Shown: in pieces, positions 5,979 through 62,756 of the stretch
How positions within the stretch are numbered: position 1 is the stretch's first letter
Layout of the letters: every line of letters begins with the position of its first letter
IMG/VR virus record: IMGVR_UViG_3300029723_000002
Coordinates: 1-64,000 of that record
DNA: 64,000 nucleotides
Origin: a virus
Strand: one strand, 5' to 3'
The notes under the pieces: model-generated
Databases searched by the model: none
Seen by the model: the letters and a program-made list of their open reading frames with translations, nothing else
Told to the model about the DNA's origin: nothing
Position numbers and translations under genes: made by a program

Positions 5979-8200
5979 TATGGCCTCCTATAATTCATTC
6001 ATTTTGTTTGAAACTCTGGGAGATCTTTATTTATAGATTGTTCATATGGCATAGTTCCATCAATTAATCCTCGAATATAACCATATCTTAATCAATTTCC
6101 TCTTAATGTGTCTTTATTAAAGACTGTTTGTTCAGTAATTCATCGATTAACTAGATTCGGATCATTGTAATCAGAGTATTCCGAAAGTAAATTTAATGTA
6201 CCTCCAATTTTTGCTCCCATATATTTTAGGTGTAATAATGCTGATTGAAAATTTTCAGGAAGCTTATTTACATCTACATTATATTTTGCAGCAGTATCTT
6301 TTACTACTTGCCATTCACTGTCTACAGCTAACTTATCAATAAATTTAATATCATCTAATGATAACTCATTTTTTAAAGATCTCTCATAGATATCTGGAGC
6401 TTTCTCTTTAAGTAGTTTATCACTAACCCCATGACCAATCAGCATTAATCCATTTTTCGCATAATTCGGATCTTTATATCACGACAAATGCCTTTTTATG
6501 CCCTCAAATGATCCTATTTGTTGCTGAACAATATCTAAATCTAAATTTGAATAAGTTTTTGGAGCTTGTCAGTTTTTATTAGCTCTATCAAACGATTTTT
6601 GTTTTGGAGGTTCTATTGATGGAATAAATTTACCACTGTTCTGAAATTTAGGAATAATACCTCCTAATTTGGCACTTTTAACGTTATCGTTTTTCTTTAC
6701 AGGAGCCTTTGCTACATCATTTAATAAGAATAATAAAAAATCATCATTGTATCTATTAAATAAATCAGGATCTCCCTCTGATTTATAATGACGAAACATA
6801 GTAGCATCTTCTAAATGCCAATCTTTAGTAGATCCAGGATAAATCGAAAAATCAATTTTATCAACTACTTTAGCTACTTTCTTACCTGTATTGTTATTTT
6901 TAAAAGTATATCCATATTGTATTTTTTGAGTCTGTTTATCTCTAAACTCCTCAATTTCTTTCTCAGTAAAGACATGTGTGGGATCAATATTATGCTGTCT
7001 TCTAAATTGCATTAACCTAGAATAAATCTCAGCAGGATTATCTAAATAATCATCCTGAGAAACATGTATAGTGTGAATAGGTCTACGTTTCTCGTATTCT
7101 TTAATAGTGTCGATTATAAAATAAGGATTCGTAGAATGAGCTAATTCATGAGCTGCTATTTCACTTACAGGTACTTTACTATTAGCTTTTACAACTAAAT
7201 AGTGATCCTCTGGATTATAAAAACCTTCTTTATTTTCCATAAGCTTATCAGAAATATCGTACCTAAGTAACTTACCCAGAGGACCATTGACAACTTGTTT
7301 ATACTCTTCTTGTTCCTCGGGACCAGAGTTATATAAATATGTATCAACAGAAGTTAATCTGTCATTTAATCAATGGTATCCTAATGTTTTACTCTGTAAT
7401 CATTTTGGAAGTGATGACCGCTCTCATAGATTTTTATTAATAATATGTCTTCTTTTATTATACCAGTTAGTCATTCATTCTTGAGTCGACTCAATGTCTT
7501 CTCGATCTGTTCAGCGATCCTTAATTCTTCCACCTTCTTGTAACTTTTTTAGAATACCTCCTAGTTTAGAATTTTGTATCATCTTGTGTAATACAGACTG
7601 ATACTTAGGATCAGTAGCATAACCACCTCGTGCTACTCTAGATGCAAAATCATTCACAGATCCAGAAAATGCTCTATATCTCTTATTATTTAATAAGTTA
7701 ATCTTATAATTAGCATAATCTTCTAAAGAAGAAAAATCCTTAAATTCCTGATTTAATCTTATATCCTTACCATTAATAACTTCTCGTGTGCTAGCAACAG
7801 TACCTTTACCTTTGATCCCTCCAAAATTGAATAATCCAGAAGGCTTTTTACCTCAAGCTGATTCCAACCCATCTTGTGCTACTAAAGCCTTAGCAAATGT
7901 GGGATTTAATCCTTTTTGCCTTAGTAACCTTTCATATATAGGAGTCATTATTGATTTAAACTCTTCCTTAGAAGTAAATTTTTTAATCGGTTTCTTAACT
8001 AAAGACTGATATTCTTCTATGGGAGTTTCTTGTATACTTAAATCAATAGAAGACTCAACTGAATTTTCTTCTGGAATATCAGAAGCTTCTTTAGTAACTA
8101 AATATTTAGGAGTATATTCAGATACAGGAACAGGTCTGGATAAAGAATAGTCTGTATTAAAGCTGTCCTCTCGTATATAAGGTCTATATGTTATATCCAT
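5978..8200 (-). CDS. large virion-associated peptidoglycan hydrolase: N-terminal FlgJ-type glucosaminidase domain plus HExxH metallopeptidase-like domain; 741 codons with about 11 in-frame TGA
   Basis: Track ORFs 7853..8200, 6569..7240 and 6140..6445 are all in one frame. Every codon between them was translated and no TAA/TAG was found from the ATG (8198-8200, preceded by in-frame TAA at 8219-8221) to TAA at 5978-5980. The N-terminal stretch ...AQDGLESA W GKKPSGLFNFGGIKG...YRAFSGSVNDFASRVARGGYATDPKY matches the Glucosaminidase (PF01832-like) ESGWG...NN[LF]FGIK...YATDP pattern. The middle carries HELAH. Confidence 0.6.
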
Positions 8201-8261
8201 AATAATGTAGTTTATTAATTATCTTGCAAATATAATAATTAATAAACAGTATTGCAAATAA

Positions 8262-28855: not shown

Positions 28856-29261
28856 GGGGGATACAGGTATTGACTAGTATATCGAAAGTTATTAATCAAG
28901 CTGAGTTTGAATAATACTCATTAAACAGATTCAAAAAATAAACGCAAACAAAACTATTTCGAGAGCTATTAACAAGGTTAAGAACTCTCTCGCTCCTATG
29001 ATGACTCTGACTCGTTCTGAAGTTGCATATGCAGCGTAGGCTTGTATCGCCTTATAATAGATACAAACTGGGTTTCTTTGTTTAGACATAAAAACAAAGT
29101 GGTGGAAGTTGACCTAACTGGTCAGCCCTACTGTTCCATTGACGTTGGGAACTAAAAACTAATGCTATCGAGGTGTGGACAACCAGAAATGTATCCTAAG
29201 CTTGTAAGTATGTTAATAATAATAGAATACTAACACATGAGTTCGAATCTCATATCCTCCA
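28856..29261 (+). ncRNA. ssrA: candidate tmRNA (SsrA-like), about 406 nt
   Basis: The 5' gggggat pairs with the 3' atcctcc to give an acceptor stem with G3:U70 (Ala identity) and discriminator A. T-arm atgag-ttcgaat-ctcat. An internal reading frame starts at GCA (28944), 88 nt from the 5' end, and ends ...SEVAYAA-TAG at 29037-29039. The element sits in a 718-nt ORF-free, GC-richer intergenic region. Confidence 0.5.
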
Positions 29262-29282
29262 CTAAATCAATAAGTTACATAT

Positions 29283-48692: not shown

Positions 48693-48763
48693 GCCTTTGT
48701 CGTTCAATGGTAGGACAGCGCTCTTCAAAAGCGTGTATGTGAGTTCGAATCTTGCCAAGGGTG
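48693..48763 (+). tRNA. opal suppressor tRNA: tRNA-Trp-like body with anticodon UCA (reads UGA as well as UGG)
   Basis: Hand-folded, 71 nt. Acceptor gcctttg/caagggt. D-arm gttc-aatggta-ggac, as in Trp tRNAs. Anticodon stem gcgct/agcgt with loop cttcaaa (U33, UCA, A37). T-arm gtgag-ttcgaat-cttgc. Discriminator G73, which is the Trp identity base. Confidence 0.7.
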
Positions 48764-48793
48764 CTAACTGATTAAAAACTAACAAGTTATAAT

Positions 48794-51804: not shown

Positions 51805-51955
51805 TGGAAAGATTATTCTTGAGGATCACAACTTAAATAAATTTCAAGAAGATTTTGCTCAACTACTATATAAATATCAAACTGTTTTCAAGGGAGAAAT
51901 AAGAAGTTATAGTTTTGAGGAATGCGAAATAATAGAACCAGAAGTTAGTGATTAA
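51785..51955 (+). CDS. small protein (56 aa)
   Basis: MVDFVLNGKIILEDHNLNKFQEDFAQLLYKYQTVFKGEIRSYSFEECEIIEPEVSD*. Confidence 0.3.
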   Translation: MVDFVLNGKIILEDHNLNKFQEDFAQLLYKYQTVFKGEIRSYSFEECEIIEPEVSD

Positions 51956-52388
51956 AATTTATACTGATGGGAGTTATAAACCTTCTACAAATCAAGGAGG
52001 GTATGCTTCAATCATTATTAATGATGATAAAATAGTTAAAATTTTACAACAAGGATATATAAATACTACAAACAATAGGATGGAAATTATGGGAGTTTTA
52101 AAGGCGTTAGAGTTTTTTAAGACTCCTCAAGATATTATTATCTATTCAGATTCAAGTTATGTAGTAAGTAGTATGTCTAATAATTATGTACAGAGATGAG
52201 TATCAGATAATGATACATCAAAAAAGAACATGGATTTGTGATCTAAGATCCTAAACTTATCAAATTTTCATAATGTAAAGTTTGTATGAGTTAAGGGTCA
52301 TAATGATAATAGATGAAACGAACTAGCTGATATTTATGCAAATATATCAGCTACTGTCGAAAACCCACAAATAGACTTAGAAGACTAA
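51948..52388 (+). CDS. rnhA: ribonuclease HI (146 aa), 4 in-frame TGA at conserved Trp positions
   Basis: IKIYTDGSYK...NNRMEIMGVLKALEF...IIIYSDSSYVV...VQR W VSDNDTSKKNMDL W SKILNLSNFHNVKFV W VKGHNDNR W NELADIYA matches YTDGS, TDS.Y, DLW and W.WVKGH...NE.AD of RNase HI. The start appears to be GTG at 51948. The stop is TAA at 52386-52388. Confidence 0.75.
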
Positions 52389-52798: not shown

Positions 52799-54463
52799 AT
52801 GAAAATGAAAACTGAAGCACCAAGTATTGAAAAATTAGATCTTAAAAGACGTAAATGTACTTTAAGTGACGATATGATTCGATTGATGCTAAGACAGTTA
52901 ACTCATGAAATGTACAATCATAACTTGTATAGAAGTTTTGCAAACTTTTATGGAGTTAGAGGTTTTCAAGTACTAGAACAATATTATATTGATCGTGCTG
53001 AGGAAGAAAAACTGCATCATGATTGGGTATATGGATATTTAAATGAATGTGATGCTGAATTTATTTATCCCGAAATTCCTGCCATTTCAGAAAAGTTTGA
53101 AGATATGATTACTCCTTTCCAATTAACAGTTGATAAGGAAATTCAAACAACTATGGAAATTAATGAAATGGTTGATTTAGCTTGTGACACAAGCGATTGG
53201 GCAACTTTCAATTGGCTTAATGGACATGACAAAGAAAAAGGCATGTTAGTTAATGAGCAGGTAGATTTCTGCCTGGCTATATAGTAATATATAGTAAGAA
53301 CAAACCAAAAACGGTGGAGGCTGCGATGCTAATACCGTGCTAATTTAGAACTTAAAAAATTCTAAACAGTGTAACGCGTAGATTTTGAACCTAATTATTA
53401 ATAGTTTTAAATTTGTTTGTGAGTTTAGTAAAGAATTATTATCTTTGTACTGAACCTTTAAAAGAATTAATATGGCTAAAATTAAAGAAACAAACAAATT
53501 TTATGAAAATAAGATTTTTCAATCAAAATCTTATGGAGATTTTAAAGTATTAAAATATAATAATACTTTTAATGTAGAAATAGAGTTTTTAACTACTGGA
53601 TATAAAACTTCAGTACAGTTGAGTAATGTTAAATCTGGTAGTGTCAGAGACCCTTATTATCCAATAGTTTATGGTGTTGGGTATATGGGAGAAGGTCCTT
53701 ATAAGTCTCGACCAGTACAAAATGGCCCGCAGAGCAGATGTTATAAAATTTGAAAAGAAATGTTGGGAAGATGTTATTGTAATAGCACTTCAAGTTTTAT
53801 AAATTATGGAGCTTGTGGAGTTGTTGTATGTTCAGAGTGGCATAATTTTCAAAACTATGCAAAATGATATTATAAAAACTGCATAAACGAATCTTATTGT
53901 GTTGATAAAGACTTTTTAGGAAAAGGTCTTAAAATTTATAGTCCCACGACTTGTTGCTTTATTCCTGAAGAGATTAATGCACAGTTAACATTAAGACAGT
54001 CAAGGAGAGGAAAATTTCCATTAGGTGTAAGACCCTGTGGAAAAAAATATCAAGCACAATTAAACAAAAACTCTAAAAAAATTCCATTAGGTGTATTTAA
54101 CACAATTGAAGAAGCATTTAACGCATACAAAACAGCTAAAGAAACGTTTTTGAAAGAGTTAGCTGATAAATATAAAGCTACTATTTCTGAGGAAGTTTAT
54201 TATGCATTAAAAAATTTTCAAATAAATATTAATGATTAGAATAAAATAAATCCAAGAGTGGTTTGCCCCTATATTTTAGGGTGAAAATGTACGCTGAACT
54301 ATAGTGAAATGAAGCTATAGAAGTTAAGATAAAAAGCTTAACGATAACAAATTGAGAAGAAGAAAATATCAGTCGAACAGCGTTGGATATAGCAGAGTCT
54401 GAAGGCAGTTGGCTTAGAAAAGAGAAATCTATCATGAATGCATATAAGGGTGATACAGATTAA
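52799..54463 (+). CDS. ferritin-like protein, split gene: exon 1 52799..53262, group I intron, exon 2 54355..54463
   Basis: Exon 1 ends ...ATFNWLNGHDKEKGMLVNEQ-V(gt|). Exon 2 supplies (a)EEENISRTALDIAESEGSWLRKEK... The spliced product matches the bacterial ferritin C-terminal region (E. coli FtnA ...[25 protein letters not shown]...). Unspliced, the ORF would end VDFCLAI*. Confidence 0.6.
53263..54354 (+). mobile_element. group I intron carrying an HNH-AP2 homing endonuclease
   Basis: The 5' exon ends with U and the intron ends with G. It shares the motifs gtgtaacgcgtag and ccaagagt...aaaatgtacgctgaact and the 3' terminus gataacaa(a/t)ttg with the intron at 60996..62095. Confidence 0.55.
53472..54239 (+). 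CDS. intron-encoded HNH homing endonuclease with AP2-like DNA-binding domain (255 aa), 2 in-frame TGA
   Basis: ...GYMGEGPYKS...RCYKI W KEMLGRCYC...NYGACGVVVCSE W HNFQNYAK W ...RPCGKKYQAQLNKNSKKIPLGVFNTIEEAFNAYKTAKE matches the HNH_3 plus AP2 architecture of phage homing endonucleases (I-HmuI-like). Confidence 0.55.
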
Positions 54464-54478
54464 TTAAAATAGCTAATA

Positions 54479-54808
54479 ATGTCTCTAATAACTGATTTAG
54501 GATTAGATCAACAATATACTACAGATCGTCCAATACTGTATTCTATACCTATAATATTTCCTAAAGTTATTGACAAAGAATATATAAGTTATTTAGTTAG
54601 TTTAGGTGTTACTTGTATTTTAGATACATCTGATCCTAGGTGGCATGACGCACCATTAAGTTGGATTTCTTTGTATTTAACAAATGGTCAGAACATGCAT
54701 GACATTAACACTTATTTGTCAAAAGGCGATTTAATACCATTAAGTACTGATAAGAAAAGAATATGCATTAACTTTTGTGGACTAAAATTAATACAAGAAA
54801 ATGATTAG
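54479..54808 (+). CDS. hypothetical protein, first of a tandem paralog array
   Basis: LGLDQQYTTDRPILYSIPIIFPKVIDKEYISYLVSLGVTC. Confidence 0.45.
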   Translation: MSLITDLGLDQQYTTDRPILYSIPIIFPKVIDKEYISYLVSLGVTCILDTSDPRWHDAPLSWISLYLTNGQNMHDINTYLSKGDLIPLSTDKKRICINFCGLKLIQEND

Positions 54809-55136
54809 AGATTTAAATCTATTGGGTTTAGACGAACAATATACAGCTCTTGGCCCACAGATCATGAATCTTCCTGTAGTATTCCCAAAAACTACTAACA
54901 AAGAAGCAATACAATATCTTACAAGTTTAGGGTACACATGTGTATTCGATCAGATATCAAAAAATCCAGATCAACGCCTAGCTATTGGGATTTGTATATT
55001 TATAAGCGAAGGCTTCACTCTATTTGATGTTGAAAAATATTTAGAGGATAATGAACTAGTACCTTTGGATTCTAATAGGAAAAATTTATTCATAAATATA
55101 AATGGATTATATAAAATGAGGTTAAACGATGGATAA
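54801..55136 (+). CDS. paralog
   Basis: LGLDEQYTALGPQIMNLPVVFPKTTNKEAIQYLTSLGYTC. Confidence 0.45.
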   Translation: MIRDLNLLGLDEQYTALGPQIMNLPVVFPKTTNKEAIQYLTSLGYTCVFDQISKNPDQRLAIGICIFISEGFTLFDVEKYLEDNELVPLDSNRKNLFININGLYKMRLNDG

Positions 55137-55459: not shown

Positions 55460-55681
55460 ATGGAAACCCTAAATATTAGAGATTACATATGCTCCTATGA
55501 TACATCTGTAGAAGCAGCAAGAAAAGTTGTAGATAAGATTATTCAATGGTGTAATAAGTACGAATGTACTGGAGGAGAAATGCTTTGTCAAAATGATGAT
55601 TGTATAATTGAAAGTCCTTATCTAGTTGCAGACATTATTGATAATATACTTAAATTTGGACATAAGTTAAATGATGATTGA
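55460..55681 (+). CDS. hypothetical small protein
   Basis: Track ORF. Confidence 0.35.
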   Translation: METLNIRDYICSYDTSVEAARKVVDKIIQWCNKYECTGGEMLCQNDDCIIESPYLVADIIDNILKFGHKLNDD

Positions 55682-55958
55682 GGAAATTAATCATATATAT
55701 GTAATTCCAAGTTATAAGAAGGAGTATTTTATTTTTCCACAAACTGTTGAATACGACACACTTAAATACTTGATCGATATGGGTTTTATTTGTATTGTTG
55801 GAGGATTTATTAACAGTAGTAAATTACAACCTATATGTCTATATAATAGATATGTTCTAGATAAATACAGGAAGTGTGATCTAGTGTCTATACCTGAAGA
55901 TATGAAAGAATTTTGTATTAAAGATGTATATGGTTTTGAACAATTATCAGATGATTAA
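55671..55958 (+). CDS. paralog-like small protein
   Basis: YFIFPQTVEYDTLKYLIDMGFIC. Confidence 0.4.
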   Translation: MMIEEINHIYVIPSYKKEYFIFPQTVEYDTLKYLIDMGFICIVGGFINSSKLQPICLYNRYVLDKYRKCDLVSIPEDMKEFCIKDVYGFEQLSDD

Positions 55959-57822: not shown

Positions 57823-57917
57823 TATATAATATTGAAAGTTAATAACTTATAATATAAAACTTATTAAACCATTTTTAGTAAGTTTCTTTAATATTTCTAT
57901 AAATTTTCGTATCTTTG

Positions 57918-59144
57918 ATGGACAGAACCGAAAGACAAAAAGTAGGAATAAGACGATGAATTGATGGGGGTGGAACAGGCACTCTTGCTTGGAGTACGGG
58001 TTTAGGTAAAACTTATGCTACAATGCTCCTAATAAAGGAATTACATAAGGCGAATCCCACCTTAGTTGTTTTAGTCGCGGTTCCTACTAATGTGTTAAAA
58101 GAACAATGAGTTAGAGAGTTGGTCAAATACCAGCTCTTTTCTGTCTGTAAGGTAGAAGTCTTTAACACTATTGTAAAACATAGTTATACAGTTGATTTAT
58201 TTGTAATAGATGAGTTACATAATGCTGCTAGTCCTGTACATATCTCGATGTTTGAAACAGTCAAGTACAGGTATTTTTTAGGCTTAACTGCTACGTTTGA
58301 ACGATTAGATGGCAGACATAAATTATTAGAACAGTACACTTCAATTTGTGATAAAATTACTATAGAAGAAGCTGTTCAGAATAAGTGACTATCTGATTAT
58401 CGAAACTACAAGGTAATACTCGATGTTGATCTGACTAAATATAATGAATGAAATCAAAAGTTCCAGTCATTATTTGCTTTATTTGATTTTAACTTTGATT
58501 TAGCTATGAAGTGTGTTCAAAGTCCAAGAATTGCAGCTTTATATGCTAAAAAACTTGGAAGAACACTAAAGGAAATAAGAGGCATTGCCGCTGCCTGAAT
58601 GAAAATGTTACGTAATAGAAAGTCCTTTGTAATGTCTCACCCTAAGAAGCTTGAAATAGCAAATAAAATTTTAGATGCTCGAAAGGATAAAAAGTGTATT
58701 ACATTTTCAGCTACAATCAAAGATGCAGAACAATTTAAATCTAGAGGAGCTCTTATACTACATAGCAAACAGAAGAAACAAGAGAATAAACAGATTATTG
58801 AAACCTTTAACAGTCTAACTTCTGGAGTGTTAAGTACTTCAAAATCTGCAGATGCTGGTTTAGATGTTAAAGGGTTAAGTGTAGGAATTATTCTTAGTGG
58901 TGACAGCTCTAAAACACGTACTACACAGAGGATCGGAAGAGCAATTCGTCAGGAGGAAGGCAAAATAGCAGAAATATTTACATTGGTTATTAGTAAAAGT
59001 ATTGAGGAGAACTGATATTCTAATGCTAATGTAAATCAACAGTATATTACTATAAATGAGAATCAATTAGATATTATACTTAATGGTGGAGAAGTGTCTA
59101 CTAAAATAAAGAGAGGTATTGCTGATACAAAATATAGATTTTAA
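57918..59144 (+). CDS. SF2 (DEAD/DEAH-like) helicase (408 aa), 6 in-frame TGA
   Basis: Motif I GTGLGKTYA. Motif II LFVIDELHNA. Motif III GLTATFER. Motif VI TTQRIGRAIRQ. The frame was checked from ATG 57918 to TAA 59142-59144 and includes track ORFs 58119..58388 and 58599..59015. Confidence 0.55.
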
Positions 59145-59189: not shown

Positions 59190-59771
59190 ATGGAGTTAGA
59201 TACAATAATTAATATAATAACTCAATATAATTTAACAGGAGATGAACTCTTGTTAATTTATTTAACTCTTTGTGCTCAGGATGGTCATCCTGAGTATTTT
59301 GCAAAGTGATTCAATGGTGGAGGTCAAACAAAACTAAAGGATCTCTTTATTTCTTTAAAAGAAAAAGGAATAATACACAAAAATTATGATCCTTCGTCTT
59401 ATATACCAGATGAAATTGAATTTAATAAAACTTTTTTAAAACGATATTTTAAACTGGCTGGGGAGCTAGGTAGAGAGTTATTTGAGGCTTACGAACCATT
59501 TATTAAAGTTAATGGAGCATTATACAGCTTAAAAAACTACTCTAAAAAGTTTTATTCTCTTGATGAATTTTGTTTTTGATACTCTTCTACTATTGGACAC
59601 AGTGTAGAAAAACACAAAAAGATAATTGAAATCCTTAAATGAGCTAGAGAAAATAACTTAATAAATATAGGCATCTTAGAATTTGTCAGTTCACATAAAT
59701 GAGTTGATTTAGAAAAACTGAGATTAGAAGGATTCAATAAACAAACTATCAGTTCTATATATCTTGACTAA
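59190..59771 (+). CDS. hypothetical protein (193 aa), 4 in-frame TGA (replication-module member)
   Basis: MELDTIINIITQYNLTGDELLLIYLTLCAQDGHPEYFAK W FNGGGQTKLKD... The frame was checked through to TAA at 59769-59771, which overlaps the next ATG. Confidence 0.4.
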
Positions 59772-60910
59772 TGTTTGGAGTTGATAATTTATTTGAACAA
59801 ATAGAACGAGGTAGAGAAGGGAAAAATATTGGTTTGAGTACAGGAATGCCAAAAATGGATAGTTATACAGGTGGTCTACAAAAAAGCTGCTATACTCTAA
59901 TTTTTGGCTTGTCTGGGAGCGGTAAGTCCAGCTTTGTGCTATATACTCATATATATAGGCCGCTAAAAGATTATCCAGAAAAAAATATTAAACTAATTTA
60001 TTATTCTCTTGAAATGAGCGAAACTGTTTTATTAGCTAAGTTATTGTGTCTTTATATTTATGAGGAATATCATTATGTACTAAGCTATAAGGATATTATG
60101 TCTTGATCTGAAATACTAGATGACGAATCTTATGAATATGTTAAAAAAGGCAAAGCTTGGTTAAATTCGATTTCAGACAAGCTCATTATTTATGATAAAG
60201 CTTTAAACTCGAAGTTTTTTTATAAATCAATGAAGGACAATCTTGAACGTTGAGGGACATTTAAAGATTCGCCCGATGGAAGAAGAACAATTTATGTTAA
60301 AAATGATCCAGAACAGTTTGTTGAAGCAATTATTGATCATATAGGTTTAGTAAGACCATCACCAGGTAGTACTAAAAAACAAGAAATTGATGAATTGTCA
60401 ACATATGCAGTATCATTAAGGGAAAAATGTTCATGCTCTTTCTGTGTGTTAATGCAAGAAAATAGAAATTCTTCTGATATGGATAGAAGAAAAGCTGATT
60501 TAACAGAAAGCAGTGCTGAAGATATCAAGGATTCAGGTAACCCATATAATGATTCAGAAGTATGTATTGCGATATATAATCCATTAAAACATAAATTAAC
60601 TTCTCATAGAGGATATCCAATTATTGTTGAAGACAGTCAACCAGGAGCATTTATTGGTCTTAGAGATCGATATAGATCAGCCATTTTAATTAAAAATAGA
60701 TTTGGAGAGGCTGATAGATTAGTTCCATTAAATTTTTTTGGCGAAATTGGACTCTTTAAAGAACTACCAAAAGTTCAAGAATGTTCAGACTGAAAAGATT
60801 ATTGTTATTTAAAAGATAACATTAGAAAAAAGAATAAGGAAGAAAAAGATTCAACTACTAAAGAAGTAGAAGTAAAAGATAGTTCAAAAAAGTTAACATA
60901 CAGTTTTTAA
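59771..60910 (+). CDS. DnaB-like replicative helicase C-terminal (RecA-fold) domain protein (379 aa), 3 in-frame TGA
   Basis: GLSTGMPKMDSYTGGLQKSCYTLIFGLSGSGKSSFVL matches the DnaB H1/Walker A region. Continues in frame through track ORF 60395..60793. Confidence 0.5.
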
Positions 60911-60912
60911 AT

Positions 60913-62756
60913 ATGGCTATCGAATTACCAAAAACAAAAATTCCTGCAGCAACCCAAGATCCTAAGTATCTGATTCTCTTTGGTTTGCCAAAGGTCAATC
61001 TGGCCCATTAGTTTAGTAATAGACTAAGTTGTATCGGGGAAAGTCGATGAATGCTAAAATTTTCTTACTTTGGTATTGGAATATACGGAAAATTTAACTA
61101 TATTTGTGTAGTTAAATTAAAAATTATATGAAAATAAACCAATTAAAGTATACAGAACAAGAAATTAAAAAGTTTGGTGAATATTATAAGTTAGGCCATT
61201 CTTTAAAAGAAACTGCAGAATATTTTAATGTTAATTATCACACATTAAAACAAAATTTGATACGATTTGGATATAGAACTCCAATAAAAAAATTAAGTAA
61301 CCAAAGAGTAACTAGTATTACTTATTTTGATTGTATTGACACTCATGAGAAAGCCTATTTTTTAGGACTGTTATTTGCAGATGGATACATTTCAAAAACT
61401 CCTTATGGAGTTAATATTGGAATTGCTCTTCAGTTACAAGATAAATATATCTTAGAGCATTTAAAGAGAGAAATTAATGTGTCAAATAAAATTTCAGATT
61501 ATAAAAACAGTTCAAAATTTTCTGTAACATGCCAACATATGTATAAGATACTAAGGAGTTTAGGGATAAAAGAAAATAAATCACATCTAGATTACAAAAT
61601 TCCTAATATTGATGAAAATTTTATCAATTCTTTTATACTTGGATATTTTGATGGAGACGGTTGTATAACTATAAAATCTACGGGCTATAGCGTTGTTTCT
61701 ATTTGCTGTAACTCTAAATTATTTTTAGAAGATATACAAAAATATTTAAATAAGTTAAATATTGCAACCCGACCTATTACTACAGAAAAAAGAATGCATA
61801 ATAATTTATTTGTTCTATATCTTTCAAAGAAAGAAAATCAGTTAAAATTTATGAATTTAATTTATAAAAATAGTAATATATTTTTACAAAGAAAATACCG
61901 TAAATTTTTGCAAATATCGAGCTAACTATTATAATAATATATAATAGTAGTGTAACGCGTAGGAAGTGAACCTGTTTTACAGAATATAATCTTCCCAAGA
62001 GTCTCCGAAACTTTTATTAAAAGTTTAAAATGTACGCTGAACTTATAGGAAACTATAAGAACTATAGGATAAAAAGCCTATAGGATAACAATTTGTGGAA
62101 AAACTACAATTTTAAGCACTCTAGAAAATAATCTAATTTTAGATACTGAATCAGGAAGTGATTATATTGATGCTTTAAAGGTTAAAGTATCTAGTGTAAA
62201 GGATATTAAGGAAGTTTGTAAAGCTATTATTGAGGCCAAAAGACCTTATAAGTACATTACTATTGATACTGTTACTGCATTGGAAGAAATTGTTAAACCA
62301 TTAGCCCTTAATTTATATAAAAACTCTCCTGTATTTGGAGAGAGGTTTGCTGATATAACTGATGTTACTGCTCTTCCTAATGGTCAGGGATATATGTGAA
62401 GTCGACAAGCTCTTGAAATGGTTATTGACATGGTATCTAAATGTGCTCCAAATATTATTTTATGTGGTCATGTTAAAGATGTATCATTAAATGAGGGTCT
62501 TGATGGCAGTGTTAAGGATTTAGACCTGACAGGTAAAGTTAAACGTATTCTTTCTGCTAGAAGTGATGCTATTGGTTTTTGTCATCGCGATACTAATGGT
62601 AACCTTTGTATTAATTTTGGTGGGGATGGTGAGATCCTTACTGGTTCAAGATGTCAACACCTAGCAGGTAAAGATATTATTGTAGCAGAGCGTCAGGAAG
62701 ATGGTTCATTTGTTTCACATTGGAATAGGATTTTTCCTTCATTAAGCAGTAAATAA
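60913..62756 (+). CDS. Sak4-like (AAA_24/RecA-like) recombination ATPase, split gene: exon 1 60913..60995, group I intron, exon 2 62096..62756; 1 in-frame TGA in exon 2
   Basis: Exon 1 is MAIELPKTKIPAATQDPKYLILFGLPK(gt|). Exon 2 is (t)GKTTILSTLENNLILDTESGSDY... The splice restores the Walker A GLPKVGKTT. The 5' exon ends with U and the intron ends with G. Confidence 0.55.
60996..62095 (+). mobile_element. group I intron carrying a LAGLIDADG homing endonuclease
   Basis: Its 5' segment resembles that of the intron at 53263 (caatctggccca... against agatttctgcctggct...). Shared core motifs gtgtaacgcgtag (61955) and aaaatgtacgctgaact (62029). Ends ...gataacaatttg. Confidence 0.55.
61128..61925 (+). 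CDS. intron-encoded LAGLIDADG homing endonuclease (265 aa)
   Basis: Two LAGLIDADG-type motifs: LLFADGYISK and ILGYFDGDGCITIK. Confidence 0.65.
   Translation: MKINQLKYTEQEIKKFGEYYKLGHSLKETAEYFNVNYHTLKQNLIRFGYRTPIKKLSNQRVTSITYFDCIDTHEKAYFLGLLFADGYISKTPYGVNIGIALQLQDKYILEHLKREINVSNKISDYKNSSKFSVTCQHMYKILRSLGIKENKSHLDYKIPNIDENFINSFILGYFDGDGCITIKSTGYSVVSICCNSKLFLEDIQKYLNKLNIATRPITTEKRMHNNLFVLYLSKKENQLKFMNLIYKNSNIFLQRKYRKFLQISS

What the first reader, a model, noticed from the sequence alone, without database searches (positions are those of the whole stretch)
52799..54463. Ferritin-like gene interrupted by a group I intron carrying an HNH-AP2 homing endonuclease
The unspliced ORF ends VDFCLAI*. Joining ...MLVNEQ-gt|...|a-gaagaagaa gives ...VNEQVEEENISRTALDIAESEGSWLRKEK... 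This reproduces the ferritin C-terminal consensus (E. coli FtnA ...[18 protein letters not shown]...). The intervening 1092 nt contain a 255-aa HNH/AP2 endonuclease ORF. The intron's core motifs are shared with the Sak4 intron. A ferritin in a phage-like element, and one carrying an intron, is unusual in its own right.
Basis: partly seen in the sequence, partly recalled or inferred. Interest (0 to 1): 0.7.

Follow-up and report, generated by a model that had tools for sequence, protein, structure and literature searches.

The report
Mobile self-splicing intron splitting phage ferritin gene
A ferritin-like gene of a gut phage that reads the stop codon TGA as tryptophan is split, inside its iron-binding motif, by a mobile group I intron carrying its own endonuclease gene; this is a well-supported but fairly ordinary new example of a known kind of element.

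Summary
Removing 53263..54354 (1092 nt) joins 52799..53262 to 54355..54463. The result is a 190-aa ferritin-like protein, 97% identical and exactly collinear with uninterrupted genes in sister phages.

The insert has group I hallmarks:
- U at -1 forms a U·G pair in P1, and the last intron base is G.
- P1-P9.1 are supported by covariation. This includes the P3/P7 pseudoknot and a P7.1/P7.2 extension (IA-type). In nine variants 96.7% of cells pair, against 32-40% in slid controls.
- The gene occurs with the ORF-bearing intron, with 257-303 nt ORF-less introns, or with no intron, always at one site.
- Exon 2 is under purifying selection.

Rfam RF00028 finds nothing. It also misses the related terL intron of Lactobacillus phage JCL1032, which is reported to self-splice.

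The 255-codon intron ORF is open only if TGA is read as Trp. Both TGAs sit at invariant Trp columns, and a tRNA(UCA) lies at 48693. Its AP2 domain is supported. The "HNH" label rests only on PHROG names; the motif is D-K-D...N, not H-N-H.

A TGA-rich intron endonuclease in a recoded phage has already been published. Verdict: new member of a known kind, moderate interest.

The parts
52799..53262 (+). Exon 1 of the ferritin-like gene (codons 1-154 plus GT of codon 155). Trp is encoded only by TGG.
   Evidence: Pfam Ferritin covers residues 31-142.
53263..54354 (+). Group I intron, IA-type, 1092 nt. Starts AGAUUU..., ends ...AAAUUG (terminal G at 54354).
   Evidence: Precise insertion relative to L001. 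Nine variants at the same site. Covariation. Family HMM hits with E 3e-13 (5' core) and 3e-16 (3' core).
53258..53275 (+). P1 hairpin. Exon CAGGU plus intron AG (53258..53264) pairs with CUGCCUG (53269..53275). U53262·G53271 is the splice-site wobble. UUCU (53267..53270) can instead pair with the 3' exon AGAA (P10).
   Evidence: The U·G pair is kept in 9 of 9 variants. P10 is read from the sequence (inference).
53277..53294 (+). P2 hairpin CUAUAUA-GUAA-UAUAUAG with a GNRA loop.
   Evidence: 4 of 7 pairs show compensatory changes; 100% paired.
53301..53306 (+). P3 5' strand, CAAACC. Pairs with 54260..54265 across the ORF.
   Evidence: Ferritin set: 100% paired, 4 of 6 pairs compensatory. Family set: 6 of 6 pairs compensatory. 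Predicted independently by RNAalifold.
53311..53338 (+). P4 (ACGGUG/UACCGU) enclosing P5 (GGC/GCU).
   Evidence: The 5'-core family HMM also hits the same region of a T4-like td intron (E 1.5e-6).
53344..53366 (+). P6 hairpin UUUAGAA...UUCUAAA.
   Evidence: 5 of 7 pairs compensatory.
53376..53380 (+). P7 5' strand, GCGUA. Pairs with 54290..54294 and forms a pseudoknot with P3.
   Evidence: 100% paired; G-C to A-U compensatory change.
53381..53385 (+). P7.1 5' strand, GAUUU. Pairs with AAAUC at 54248..54252 and encloses the ORF-bearing arm.
   Evidence: 4 of 5 pairs compensatory in both sets.
53391..53402 (+). P7.2 5' strand, CUAAUUAUUAAU. Pairs with AUUAAUGAUUAG at 54228..54239, which holds the last codons and the stop of the ORF.
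   Evidence: Read from the sequence. The outermost 6 bp of the stem (those nearest the intron core) were tested.
53472..54239 (+). Intron ORF of 255 codons: N-terminal small beta-barrel, central D-K-D...N segment, C-terminal AP2 domain. In-frame TGA at 53751..53753 and 53865..53867; stop TAG at 54237.
54260..54265 (+). P3 3' strand, GGUUUG.
54267..54281 (+). P8 hairpin CCCUA...UAGGG.
   Evidence: 84% of cells paired; MAFFT alignment is loose here.
54290..54294 (+). P7 3' strand, UACGC, followed by the conserved UGAAC.
54299..54342 (+). P9 (CUAUAG/CUAUAG) and P9.1 (GUUAAG/CUUAAC, loop AUAAAAAG).
   Evidence: 4 of 6 and 3 of 6 pairs compensatory. 80-90% identical stretches occur in many phage records.
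54355..54463 (+). Exon 2 (A of codon 155, codons 156-190, stop TAA at 54461..54463). No start codon of its own.
   Evidence: Purifying selection in intron-bearing alleles, e.g. 18 synonymous against 1 non-synonymous codon differences.
48693..48764 (+). tRNA with anticodon UCA (reads UGA), needed to translate the intron ORF.
   Evidence: ARAGORN; Rfam tRNA, 53.3 bits.
60997..62095 (+). Second intron of the same family, in the Sak4-like ATPase gene. A LAGLIDADG-type ORF (61116..61922) lies in the P5 loop.

Best explanation
Positions 53263..54354 are a mobile group I intron. It is IA-type and belongs to the same sequence family as the terL intron of Lactobacillus phage JCL1032. It sits in codon 155 of a phage ferritin-like gene.

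Insertion point. The intron lies between the Glu-Gln (E153, Q154) and Glu-Glu (E156, E157) of the conserved ferritin helix-D motif EQxEE.

Splicing. After transcription the RNA folds into P1-P9.1. An external guanosine attacks after U53262, which is held in the U·G pair of P1. The terminal G54354 then occupies the G site, and the exons are ligated, possibly helped by a P10 pairing of UUCU with AGAA. This restores the mRNA for the 190-aa protein. Without splicing only a 161-aa product forms, which lacks E156 and E157.

The intron ORF. It sits in the P7.2 loop and encodes a DNA-binding protein with an AP2 domain. I infer it is the homing endonuclease that cuts intronless alleles in co-infecting phages, so that repair copies in the intron and some flanking exon.

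Timing. The ORF contains two TGA codons while the ferritin exons use only TGG. The endonuclease can therefore be made only once the phage tRNA(UCA) reads TGA as Trp, presumably later in infection.

Shown versus inferred:
- Shown: the anatomy, the precise insertion, the covarying structure, the presence/absence polymorphism, the selection on exon 2, and TGA at Trp columns.
- Inferred: catalysis, endonuclease activity, homing, and timing.
For: 1. Precise insertion. The spliced CDS has the same length and junction as the uninterrupted L001 gene and the protein is 97% identical.

2. One site, several states. Among resolved IMG/VR loci, 20 carry the intron and at least 37 do not. Intron sizes are 257, 303, 1076-1124 nt, all at ...CAGGT|...G|AGAAGA. 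Within one 90%-identity protein cluster, 190-aa and 161-aa forms coexist on dozens of contigs.

3. RNA structure.
- Nine ferritin-intron variants: 96.7% of cells paired against 32-40% when slid; 33 of 69 pairs have double changes; 0 of 500 shuffles reach the observed value.
- RNAalifold independently recovers P1, P2, P3, P4, P5, P6, P7.1, P7.2, P8, P9 and P9.1.
- Twenty-five family members: 99.5% paired for P3, P4, P7 and P7.1, and all six P3 pairs covary.
- The U·G pair is present in 9 of 9, and G is the last base in all variants.

4. Family link. HMMs built only from IMG/VR members hit this intron (E 3e-13 and 3e-16). They also hit the JCL1032 terL intron (E 3e-8 and 2.7e-18). That CDS is annotated as joined, and the intron is cited as self-splicing (Riipinen & Alatossava 2004, via PMC6669764).

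5. Exon 2 has no start codon, yet shows 12-20 synonymous against 1-6 non-synonymous codon differences between distinct intron-bearing lineages (8 against 1 for the near-identical L133).

6. The spliced product aligns through the junction to solved ferritins: ATFNWL...VNEQVEEE against [17 protein letters not shown].

7. Both TGAs fall on invariant Trp columns (W94, W132). The homologous ORFs in L004 and L011 have four in-frame TGAs, all at Trp positions. A tRNA(UCA) is present, and other window genes carry up to 11 in-frame TGAs.

8. Divergence from the intronless sister phage jumps from 0-1 to 16-17 mismatches per 100 nt exactly at the insertion site, as expected for co-conversion.

9. A TGA-enriched group I intron endonuclease in an early gene of TGA-recoded phages has been reported (10.1101/2021.08.26.457843).
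Against: - Rfam RF00028 gives no match even at E<=10, for this intron, for the natural ORF-less version L010, and for 11 family members. The same model scores Twort introns at 64-101 bits and a T4-like td intron at 42.5 bits. This is mitigated by the miss on JCL1032 terL.
- There is no RNA evidence of splicing for this locus.
- The exon part of P1 is only 4-5 bp, and the C(-5) pair is broken in 3 of 9 variants.
- The divergence spike has no sampled donor. It could reflect recombination that is unrelated to homing.
Confidence: 0.88

Rival explanations
1. The ferritin gene is a pseudogene disrupted by insertion of a mobile endonuclease cassette. Nothing is spliced. Only a truncated 161-aa protein, or none, is made.
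For: No Rfam group I match. Public gene calls list the 161-aa product as 'ferritin'. There is no transcript evidence.
Against: Exon 2 has no start codon, yet it is conserved with 12-20 synonymous against 1-6 non-synonymous codon differences across distinct intron-bearing lineages. The flanking non-coding parts form a covarying group I fold with a U·G pair and a terminal G. Natural ORF-less versions keep the whole RNA core. The truncated product would lack E156 and E157 of the metal-binding motif.
Confidence: 0.04
2. The intron splices, but its ORF is no longer, or never was, an active homing endonuclease. It would be a degenerate or domesticated DNA-binding protein, for example a maturase-like or regulatory factor. 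The intron would then persist by vertical descent and general recombination.
For: No HNH domain is found by any profile or fold search, and D-K-D replaces the His-containing motif. The PHROG matches cover only part of longer 'HNH endonuclease' profiles, e.g. positions 186-384 of 420. ORF-less derivatives exist (L010, L179), as expected late in a homing cycle.
Against: The ORF is intact and conserved over 250+ aa in hundreds of homologs, with invariant D145, K146, D147 and N169 in the 23-sequence alignment (nearly invariant, >=90%, for D145-D147 with 36 sequences) within a predicted beta-beta-alpha segment. Intron presence is polymorphic within a single 90% cluster. There is a sharp divergence boundary at the insertion site.
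Confidence: 0.25
3. The in-frame TGAs mean that the intron ORF is a dead pseudogene read with the standard code.
For: Under table 11 the ORF breaks into 93-aa and 35-aa pieces.
Against: Both TGAs align to invariant Trp columns. Homologs in relatives carry four TGAs, all at Trp columns, and no other defects. A tRNA(UCA) is present. Many other genes in the window need TGA=Trp, including RNase H at 52197.
Confidence: 0.03

Closest known systems
Group I intron in the terminase large-subunit gene of Lactobacillus delbrueckii phage JCL1032 (Riipinen & Alatossava 2004, cited in PMC6669764)
   Same: Same sequence family. The family HMMs hit it with E 3e-8 (5' core) and 2.7e-18 (3' core). It has the same order of elements: P3, AAA, P4-P5, P6, J6/7-P7, P7.1 with a UGAA...AAUAUAAU loop, CACGAG, P3', P8, P7', P9, and P9.1 with the GAUAAAAAGC loop, ending GAUAAC...UG. 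RF00028 misses it too.
   Different: Different host gene (terL) and no ORF (226 nt). The J6/7 sequence is more divergent.
IA2 introns of T4 (td) and Staphylococcus phage Twort (orf142)
   Same: P7.1/P7.2 lie between P7 and P3'. They share AGUG(C/U)AACG before P7, CUGAAC after P7', a P9 hairpin followed by GAAG, and a 3' end ...UAACA(U/A)AAUUG. The P4-P6 region resembles td. The T4 td intron also carries a homing endonuclease ORF.
   Different: The P7.1/P7.2 arm has a different design. The ORF sits in P7.2 rather than P6a (my recollection of the td literature). RF00028 scores td and Twort at 42-101 bits but not this family.
TGA-enriched group I intron endonuclease in an early gene of TGA-recoded 'Agate' gut phages (Borges et al., 10.1101/2021.08.26.457843)
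   Same: A recoded (TGA=Trp) gut phage with an intron endonuclease that uses TGA for Trp inside a host gene in standard code. The proposed consequence is the same: the endonuclease is made only after the code switch.
   Different: In the passages I read that paper does not name the host gene or the intron structure. Whether this window belongs to the Agate clade was not tested.
AP2-domain homing endonucleases of phages and cyanobacteria (HNH-AP2 class; Magnani et al. 2004, from memory)
   Different: No canonical HNH motif or Pfam HNH match. The central motif is D-K-D...N.
Bacterial non-heme ferritins (H. pylori Pfr 3bve, E. coli FtnA 1eum)
   Same: Four-helix-bundle ferritin profile. By alignment, ferroxidase-type ligands are conserved: E37, Y44, E70, H73, E114, E153, Q154, E156, E157.
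   Different: Only about 20-25% identical, with a 7-residue insert before helix D and a 20-residue N-terminal extension. It scores far below the NCBIfam equivalog cut-offs (37 against 178 bits). It is phage-encoded.

Membership tests
Group I intron | Removal restores an uninterrupted reading frame collinear with intronless homologs. | tested here: met
   573-nt spliced CDS of the same length as L001, with an identical junction.
Group I intron | The 5' exon ends in U, paired to G within P1 formed with an internal guide sequence. | tested here: met
   U·G in 9 of 9 variants; P1 is 7 bp in the window.
Group I intron | The last intron nucleotide is G. | tested here: met
   All 14 distinct ferritin-intron sequences end in G.
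Group I intron | Core helices P3-P9 with the P3/P7 pseudoknot, supported by covariation. | tested here: met
Group I intron | P10 pairing between the guide sequence and the 3' exon. | tested here: inconclusive
   UUCU or UUUU next to the P1 strand can pair with AGAA of exon 2 in all variants. This is only 4 bp and invariant, so there is no covariation.
Group I intron | Match to the Rfam covariance model RF00028. | tested here: not met
   No hit at E<=10. Controls: Twort 64-101 bits, td 42.5 bits. The JCL1032 terL intron is also missed.
Group I intron | Guanosine-dependent self-splicing. | not testable with these tools
   Needs an in vitro transcript or RNA-seq.
Subgroup IA (phage-type) | Extra helices P7.1/P7.2 between P7 and the 3' strand of P3 (definition from established literature). 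| tested here: met
   P7.1 and P7.2 lie between 53380 and 54260 and covary.
JCL1032-type intron sequence family | Significant match to profiles built from independent family members. | tested here: met
   nhmmer E 3e-13 and 3e-16 for the window; 3e-8 and 2.7e-18 for JCL1032.
HNH homing endonuclease | HNH (beta-beta-alpha-metal) domain with a catalytic His, recognised by Pfam or by fold. | tested here: not met
HNH homing endonuclease | Membership of families annotated as HNH endonuclease. | tested here: met
   phrog_953, phrog_2081 and phrog_374, E 1e-46 to 9e-53, each over part of the profile. The names are annotation, not tested function.
Homing endonuclease gene (any class) | ORF in a peripheral loop of a mobile intron, with ORF and intron both polymorphic among close relatives. 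| tested here: met
   The ORF lies in the P7.2 loop. There are ORF-less introns (L010, L179) and intronless alleles.
Homing endonuclease gene (any class) | Site-specific cleavage of the intronless allele. | not testable with these tools
   Biochemistry is required.
AP2 DNA-binding domain | Three-stranded sheet plus helix fold; Pfam PF00847. | tested here: met
Ferritin (Pfam PF00210) | Profile match above the curated cut-off, with di-iron ligands conserved. | tested here: met
   47.3 bits against a 24.5 cut-off. E37, Y44, E70, H73, E114, E153 and Q154 are invariant. Alignment to ferritin structures runs through EQ-EE.
Non-heme ferritin FtnA (NCBIfam equivalog) | Score above the equivalog cut-off. 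| tested here: not met
   37.2 bits against a 178 cut-off. It is ferritin-like, not an FtnA ortholog. Assembly into a 24-mer was not tested.
TGA-to-Trp recoded phage (code 4) | In-frame TGA at conserved Trp positions together with a tRNA(UCA). | tested here: met

The most novel reading that the evidence does not exclude
The JCL1032-type introns could be an abundant IA-like subclass of gut and Firmicutes phages that current covariance models do not recognise. One 15-mer finds at least 119 IMG/VR stretches. Their P7.1/P7.2 arm would act as a landing pad for endonuclease genes. In recoded phages the endonuclease would be gated by the genetic-code switch, because its TGA codons are unreadable early in infection. 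Its nuclease would be an HNH derivative that uses Lys in place of the catalytic His. Splicing inside the ferroxidase motif would make ferritin activity strictly dependent on ribozyme function.
Probability: 0.3. Interest if true: 0.55.

Novelty: new member of a known kind. Interest (0 to 1): 0.35.

Why it matters
- Annotation. Public gene calls label the truncated 161-aa exon-1 product simply as 'ferritin'. The real product is 190 aa and includes two of the metal-binding glutamates.
- Detection. A widespread phage group I intron family escapes Rfam RF00028, so intron surveys based on that model undercount phage introns.
- Regulation. This locus is a clean natural example for testing whether stop-codon recoding delays homing-endonuclease production relative to its host gene.
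- Biology. A ferritin-like gene is conserved in a clade of roughly 160-178 kb gut phages, and its role in infection is unknown.

Tried and rejected
- Rfam scans at gathering and at E<=10 of the window, the intron region, the Sak4 intron, the natural ORF-less L010 and 11 family members found no group I hit. After controls I do not treat this as evidence against a group I intron.
- Pfam and NCBIfam on the intron ORF found nothing.
I used P0121, which is 99% identical, instead.
- I looked for a co-conversion donor among sampled alleles. None matches the window's -90..-1 flank better than 82%, so co-conversion stays suggestive only.
- Group II intron, intein and a separately translated split gene were considered and rejected. 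The insert has stops in the exon frame, exon 2 has no start codon, and no group II hit appears in Rfam.
- A literature search for group I intron + ferritin + phage found no report of this case.
- I could not assign the phage to a named clade or host with the calls made.
Full report
**1. What is in the sequence**

ORF 52799..53284 encodes 161 aa ending ...MLVNEQVDFCLAI*. Joining 52799..53262 to 54355..54463 gives a 573-nt CDS. Its 190-aa product ends ...LVNEQVEEENISRTALDIAESEGSWLRKEKSIMNAYKGDTD*.

A search of 5.8 billion proteins returned 184 relatives.
- Most are about 190 aa and cover 100% of the spliced product. The best is 97% identical.
- A second class is 161-162 aa and ends EQV[D/E/N]FCL...

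The uninterrupted gene in contig L001 has the same length, and its junction is GAGCAGGT|AGAAGAAG. The interruption is therefore real, precise and recurrent. An A on both sides leaves the boundary ambiguous by 1 nt. The group I rule fixes the intron at 53263..54354.

**2. The host gene**

- The spliced protein matches Pfam Ferritin (E 2.5e-12, above the cut-off) and solved bacterial ferritins (best E 5.5e-12).
- The alignments run through the junction: ATFNWLNGHDKEKGMLVNEQVEEE against [17 protein letters not shown].
- E37, Y44, E69/E70, H73, E114, E153 and Q154 are invariant in the family. In that alignment they correspond to the ferroxidase-centre ligands. The FtnA and Pfr residue numbering is from established knowledge.
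- The intron splits codon 155, between EQ and EE, so the unspliced product lacks E156 and E157.
- The protein scores far below the NCBIfam FtnA equivalog cut-off. It is ferritin-like, not an FtnA ortholog.
- The gene is conserved in a clade of phage contigs whose longer members are about 100-178 kb (74 IMG/VR loci).
- The neighbours are phage replication genes: RNase H, helicases, a DnaB-like protein and a metallophosphoesterase.

**3. The intervening RNA**

Fourteen distinct sequences of this intron were collected. They fall into nine clearly different variants, all at the same site.
- Sizes are 1076-1124 nt with an ORF.
- Two natural ORF-less forms are 303 nt (L010) and 257 nt (L179).

I replaced the ORF-bearing loop with GAAA, for alignment only, in all but L179, which was kept in its natural form (in the already ORF-less L010 only 36 nt of the loop were replaced). 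A hand-drawn group I structure was then tested.

| Measure | Result |
|---|---|
| Cells forming a pair | 96.7% |
| Same, with 3' partners slid by 1-3 columns | 32-40% |
| Pairs with changes on both sides | 33 of 69 |
| Shuffles reaching the observed value | 0 of 500 |

- RNAalifold independently predicted every helix except P7, which is pseudoknotted and outside its reach.
- The long-range P3 (53301..53306 with 54260..54265, across the ORF) is 100% paired, and 4 of its 6 pairs are compensatory.
- Across 25 family members from unrelated genes, all six P3 pairs covary and 99.5% of cells pair.
- The splice-site U·G pair is kept in 9 of 9 variants, and every variant ends in G.
- P7.1 and P7.2 lie between P7 and the 3' strand of P3. 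This is the arrangement of subgroup IA phage introns such as T4 td and Twort (sequences read; the definition is from the literature).
- The ORF occupies the P7.2 loop. Its last four codons and its stop codon form the 3' strand of P7.2.

**4. The negative Rfam result and its controls**

RF00028 gives nothing at E<=10 for the window intron, L010, the Sak4 intron or 11 family members.

| Control | RF00028 result |
|---|---|
| Three Twort introns | 64-101 bits |
| T4-like td intron | 42.5 bits, below gathering |
| JCL1032 terL intron | no hit |

The JCL1032 terL intron is annotated as a joined CDS and cited as experimentally self-splicing. It belongs to the present family by profile search (E 3e-8 and 2.7e-18). 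The Rfam result therefore reflects incomplete model coverage, not absence of a group I fold.

The family is large.
- The 15-mer CAGTGTAACGCRTAG alone finds at least 119 IMG/VR stretches.
- blastn finds members in crAss-like, Staphylococcus, Clostridium, Clostridioides, Bacillus and Lactobacillus phages, mostly in terminase, tape-measure or unannotated DNA.

**5. Evidence that the intron is spliced and mobile**

- Exon 2 has no start codon, yet between distinct intron-bearing lineages it shows 12-20 synonymous against 1-6 non-synonymous codon differences (8 against 1 for the near-identical L133).
- Presence is polymorphic. Twenty of the resolved IMG/VR loci carry the intron and at least 37 do not. 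Within one 90%-identity cluster, 190-aa and 161-aa forms both occur on many contigs.
- Against the nearly identical intronless phage L132, mismatches are 0-1 per 100 nt for 1.4 kb upstream. They jump to 17 per 100 nt in the last 100 nt before the site and stay raised for about 500 nt after it.
- The two intron-bearing alleles share 3'-exon SNPs that the intronless allele lacks.
- This pattern fits exon co-conversion during homing (general mechanism: PMC3984707). No donor was sampled.

**6. The intron ORF**

- Under the standard code the ORF is broken by TGA at 53751 and 53865. With TGA=Trp it is 255 aa.
- It is 99% identical to P0121 and 43-78% identical to the other listed homologs, which are mostly about 250-260 aa. 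Both TGAs fall on invariant Trp columns.
- The homologous ORFs in L004 and L011 have four TGAs, all at Trp columns.
- The ferritin exons use TGG four times and TGA never. The ORF uses TGA twice and TGG once.
- A tRNA(UCA) lies at 48693..48764. Several other genes need TGA=Trp.
- PHROG families named 'HNH endonuclease' match at E down to 9e-53, each over only part of the profile.
- Pfam and NCBIfam find nothing in the protein itself. Pfam AP2 is found in 7 of 23 homologs.
- An AlphaFold model (pLDDT 91) shows three parts:
  - an N-terminal small beta-barrel;
  - a central helical region ending in a beta-beta-alpha segment (143-172), which carries the residues D145-K146-D147 and N169 that are invariant (D145-D147 nearly invariant);
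- 'AP2' is therefore supported. 'HNH' is at best a derivative without the catalytic His, and nuclease activity is inferred.

**7. Comparison with what is known**

- Group I introns carrying endonuclease genes in phage genes are classical.
- Borges et al. already reported a TGA-enriched group I intron endonuclease in an early gene of TGA-recoded Agate phages. They proposed that its in-frame stops delay its production.
- What is new here: the host gene (a ferritin-like gene split inside its metal-binding motif), the explicit structure with the ORF in P7.2, and the demonstration that this intron family escapes RF00028.

**8. Verdict**

It is a new member of a known kind, of moderate interest.

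Noticed in passing
window 60914..62753: A second intron of the same family splits the Walker A motif of a Sak4/RecA-like ATPase gene. Exon 1 is 60914..60996 (...FGLPKV), the intron is 60997..62095, and exon 2 starts at 62096 (GKTTILS...). It carries a LAGLIDADG-type ORF (61116..61922, phrog_4645 'endonuclease') in the P5 loop rather than in P7.2. Its P3 would be UCGGGG/CUCCGA.
   Followed up: partly
window 48693..48764, and ORFs 5981..8218(-), 57903..59141, 59741..60907, 51948..52385: The phage uses TGA as Trp in a subset of genes. A 746-codon reading frame (740 aa from its first Met) whose product has an endolysin-like domain has 11 in-frame TGAs, a helicase has 6, a DnaB-like protein has 4, and RNase H has 1 at 52197. 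Many other genes have none. A tRNA(UCA) is encoded. Among long frames the stop codons are TAA (61) and TAG (14).
   Followed up: partly
window 28856..29264: A phage-encoded tmRNA (Rfam 73.4 bits; ARAGORN tag peptide ANKTISRAINKVKNSLAPMMTLTRSEVAYAA*). ARAGORN finds 12 tRNA genes (Rfam 13) scattered between 16 and 49 kb.
   Followed up: no
window 53170..54900 compared with L132, L001, L133: There is a sharp mosaic boundary at the intron insertion site. Upstream is 99-100% identical, then the next several hundred bases differ by 8-17%. The -90..-1 flank of the window differs by 18% from both its intron-bearing (L133) and intronless (L132) sisters.
   Followed up: partly
L208 1429..1654 (JCL1032), L010, L179 and 11 IMG/VR loci: Rfam RF00028 does not detect this intron family at all, including the JCL1032 terL intron, which is reported to self-splice. 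It does detect the Twort introns and a T4-like td intron.
   Followed up: yes
protein cluster of P0001 (P0262, P0266, 161 aa): Public sources name the truncated exon-1 product 'ferritin'. The intron and exon 2 are not annotated.
   Followed up: partly
window 54479..55136 and 55671..55958: Two adjacent small genes (109 and 111 aa) just downstream of the ferritin gene, plus a third (95 aa) further on, look like paralogs. They share motifs such as ...LGLD.QYT......P..FPK....E.I.YL.SLG.TC....
   Followed up: no
L066 1929..2146 (-): This IMG/VR locus holds a different group I intron that RF00028 does detect (52 bits), in addition to a member of the undetected family.
   Followed up: no
L002 4062..4874: A sister contig carries a 270-aa ORF with a faint LAGLIDADG_3 hit, about 1.8 kb downstream of its intronless ferritin gene. 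Endonuclease content varies between close relatives.
   Followed up: no
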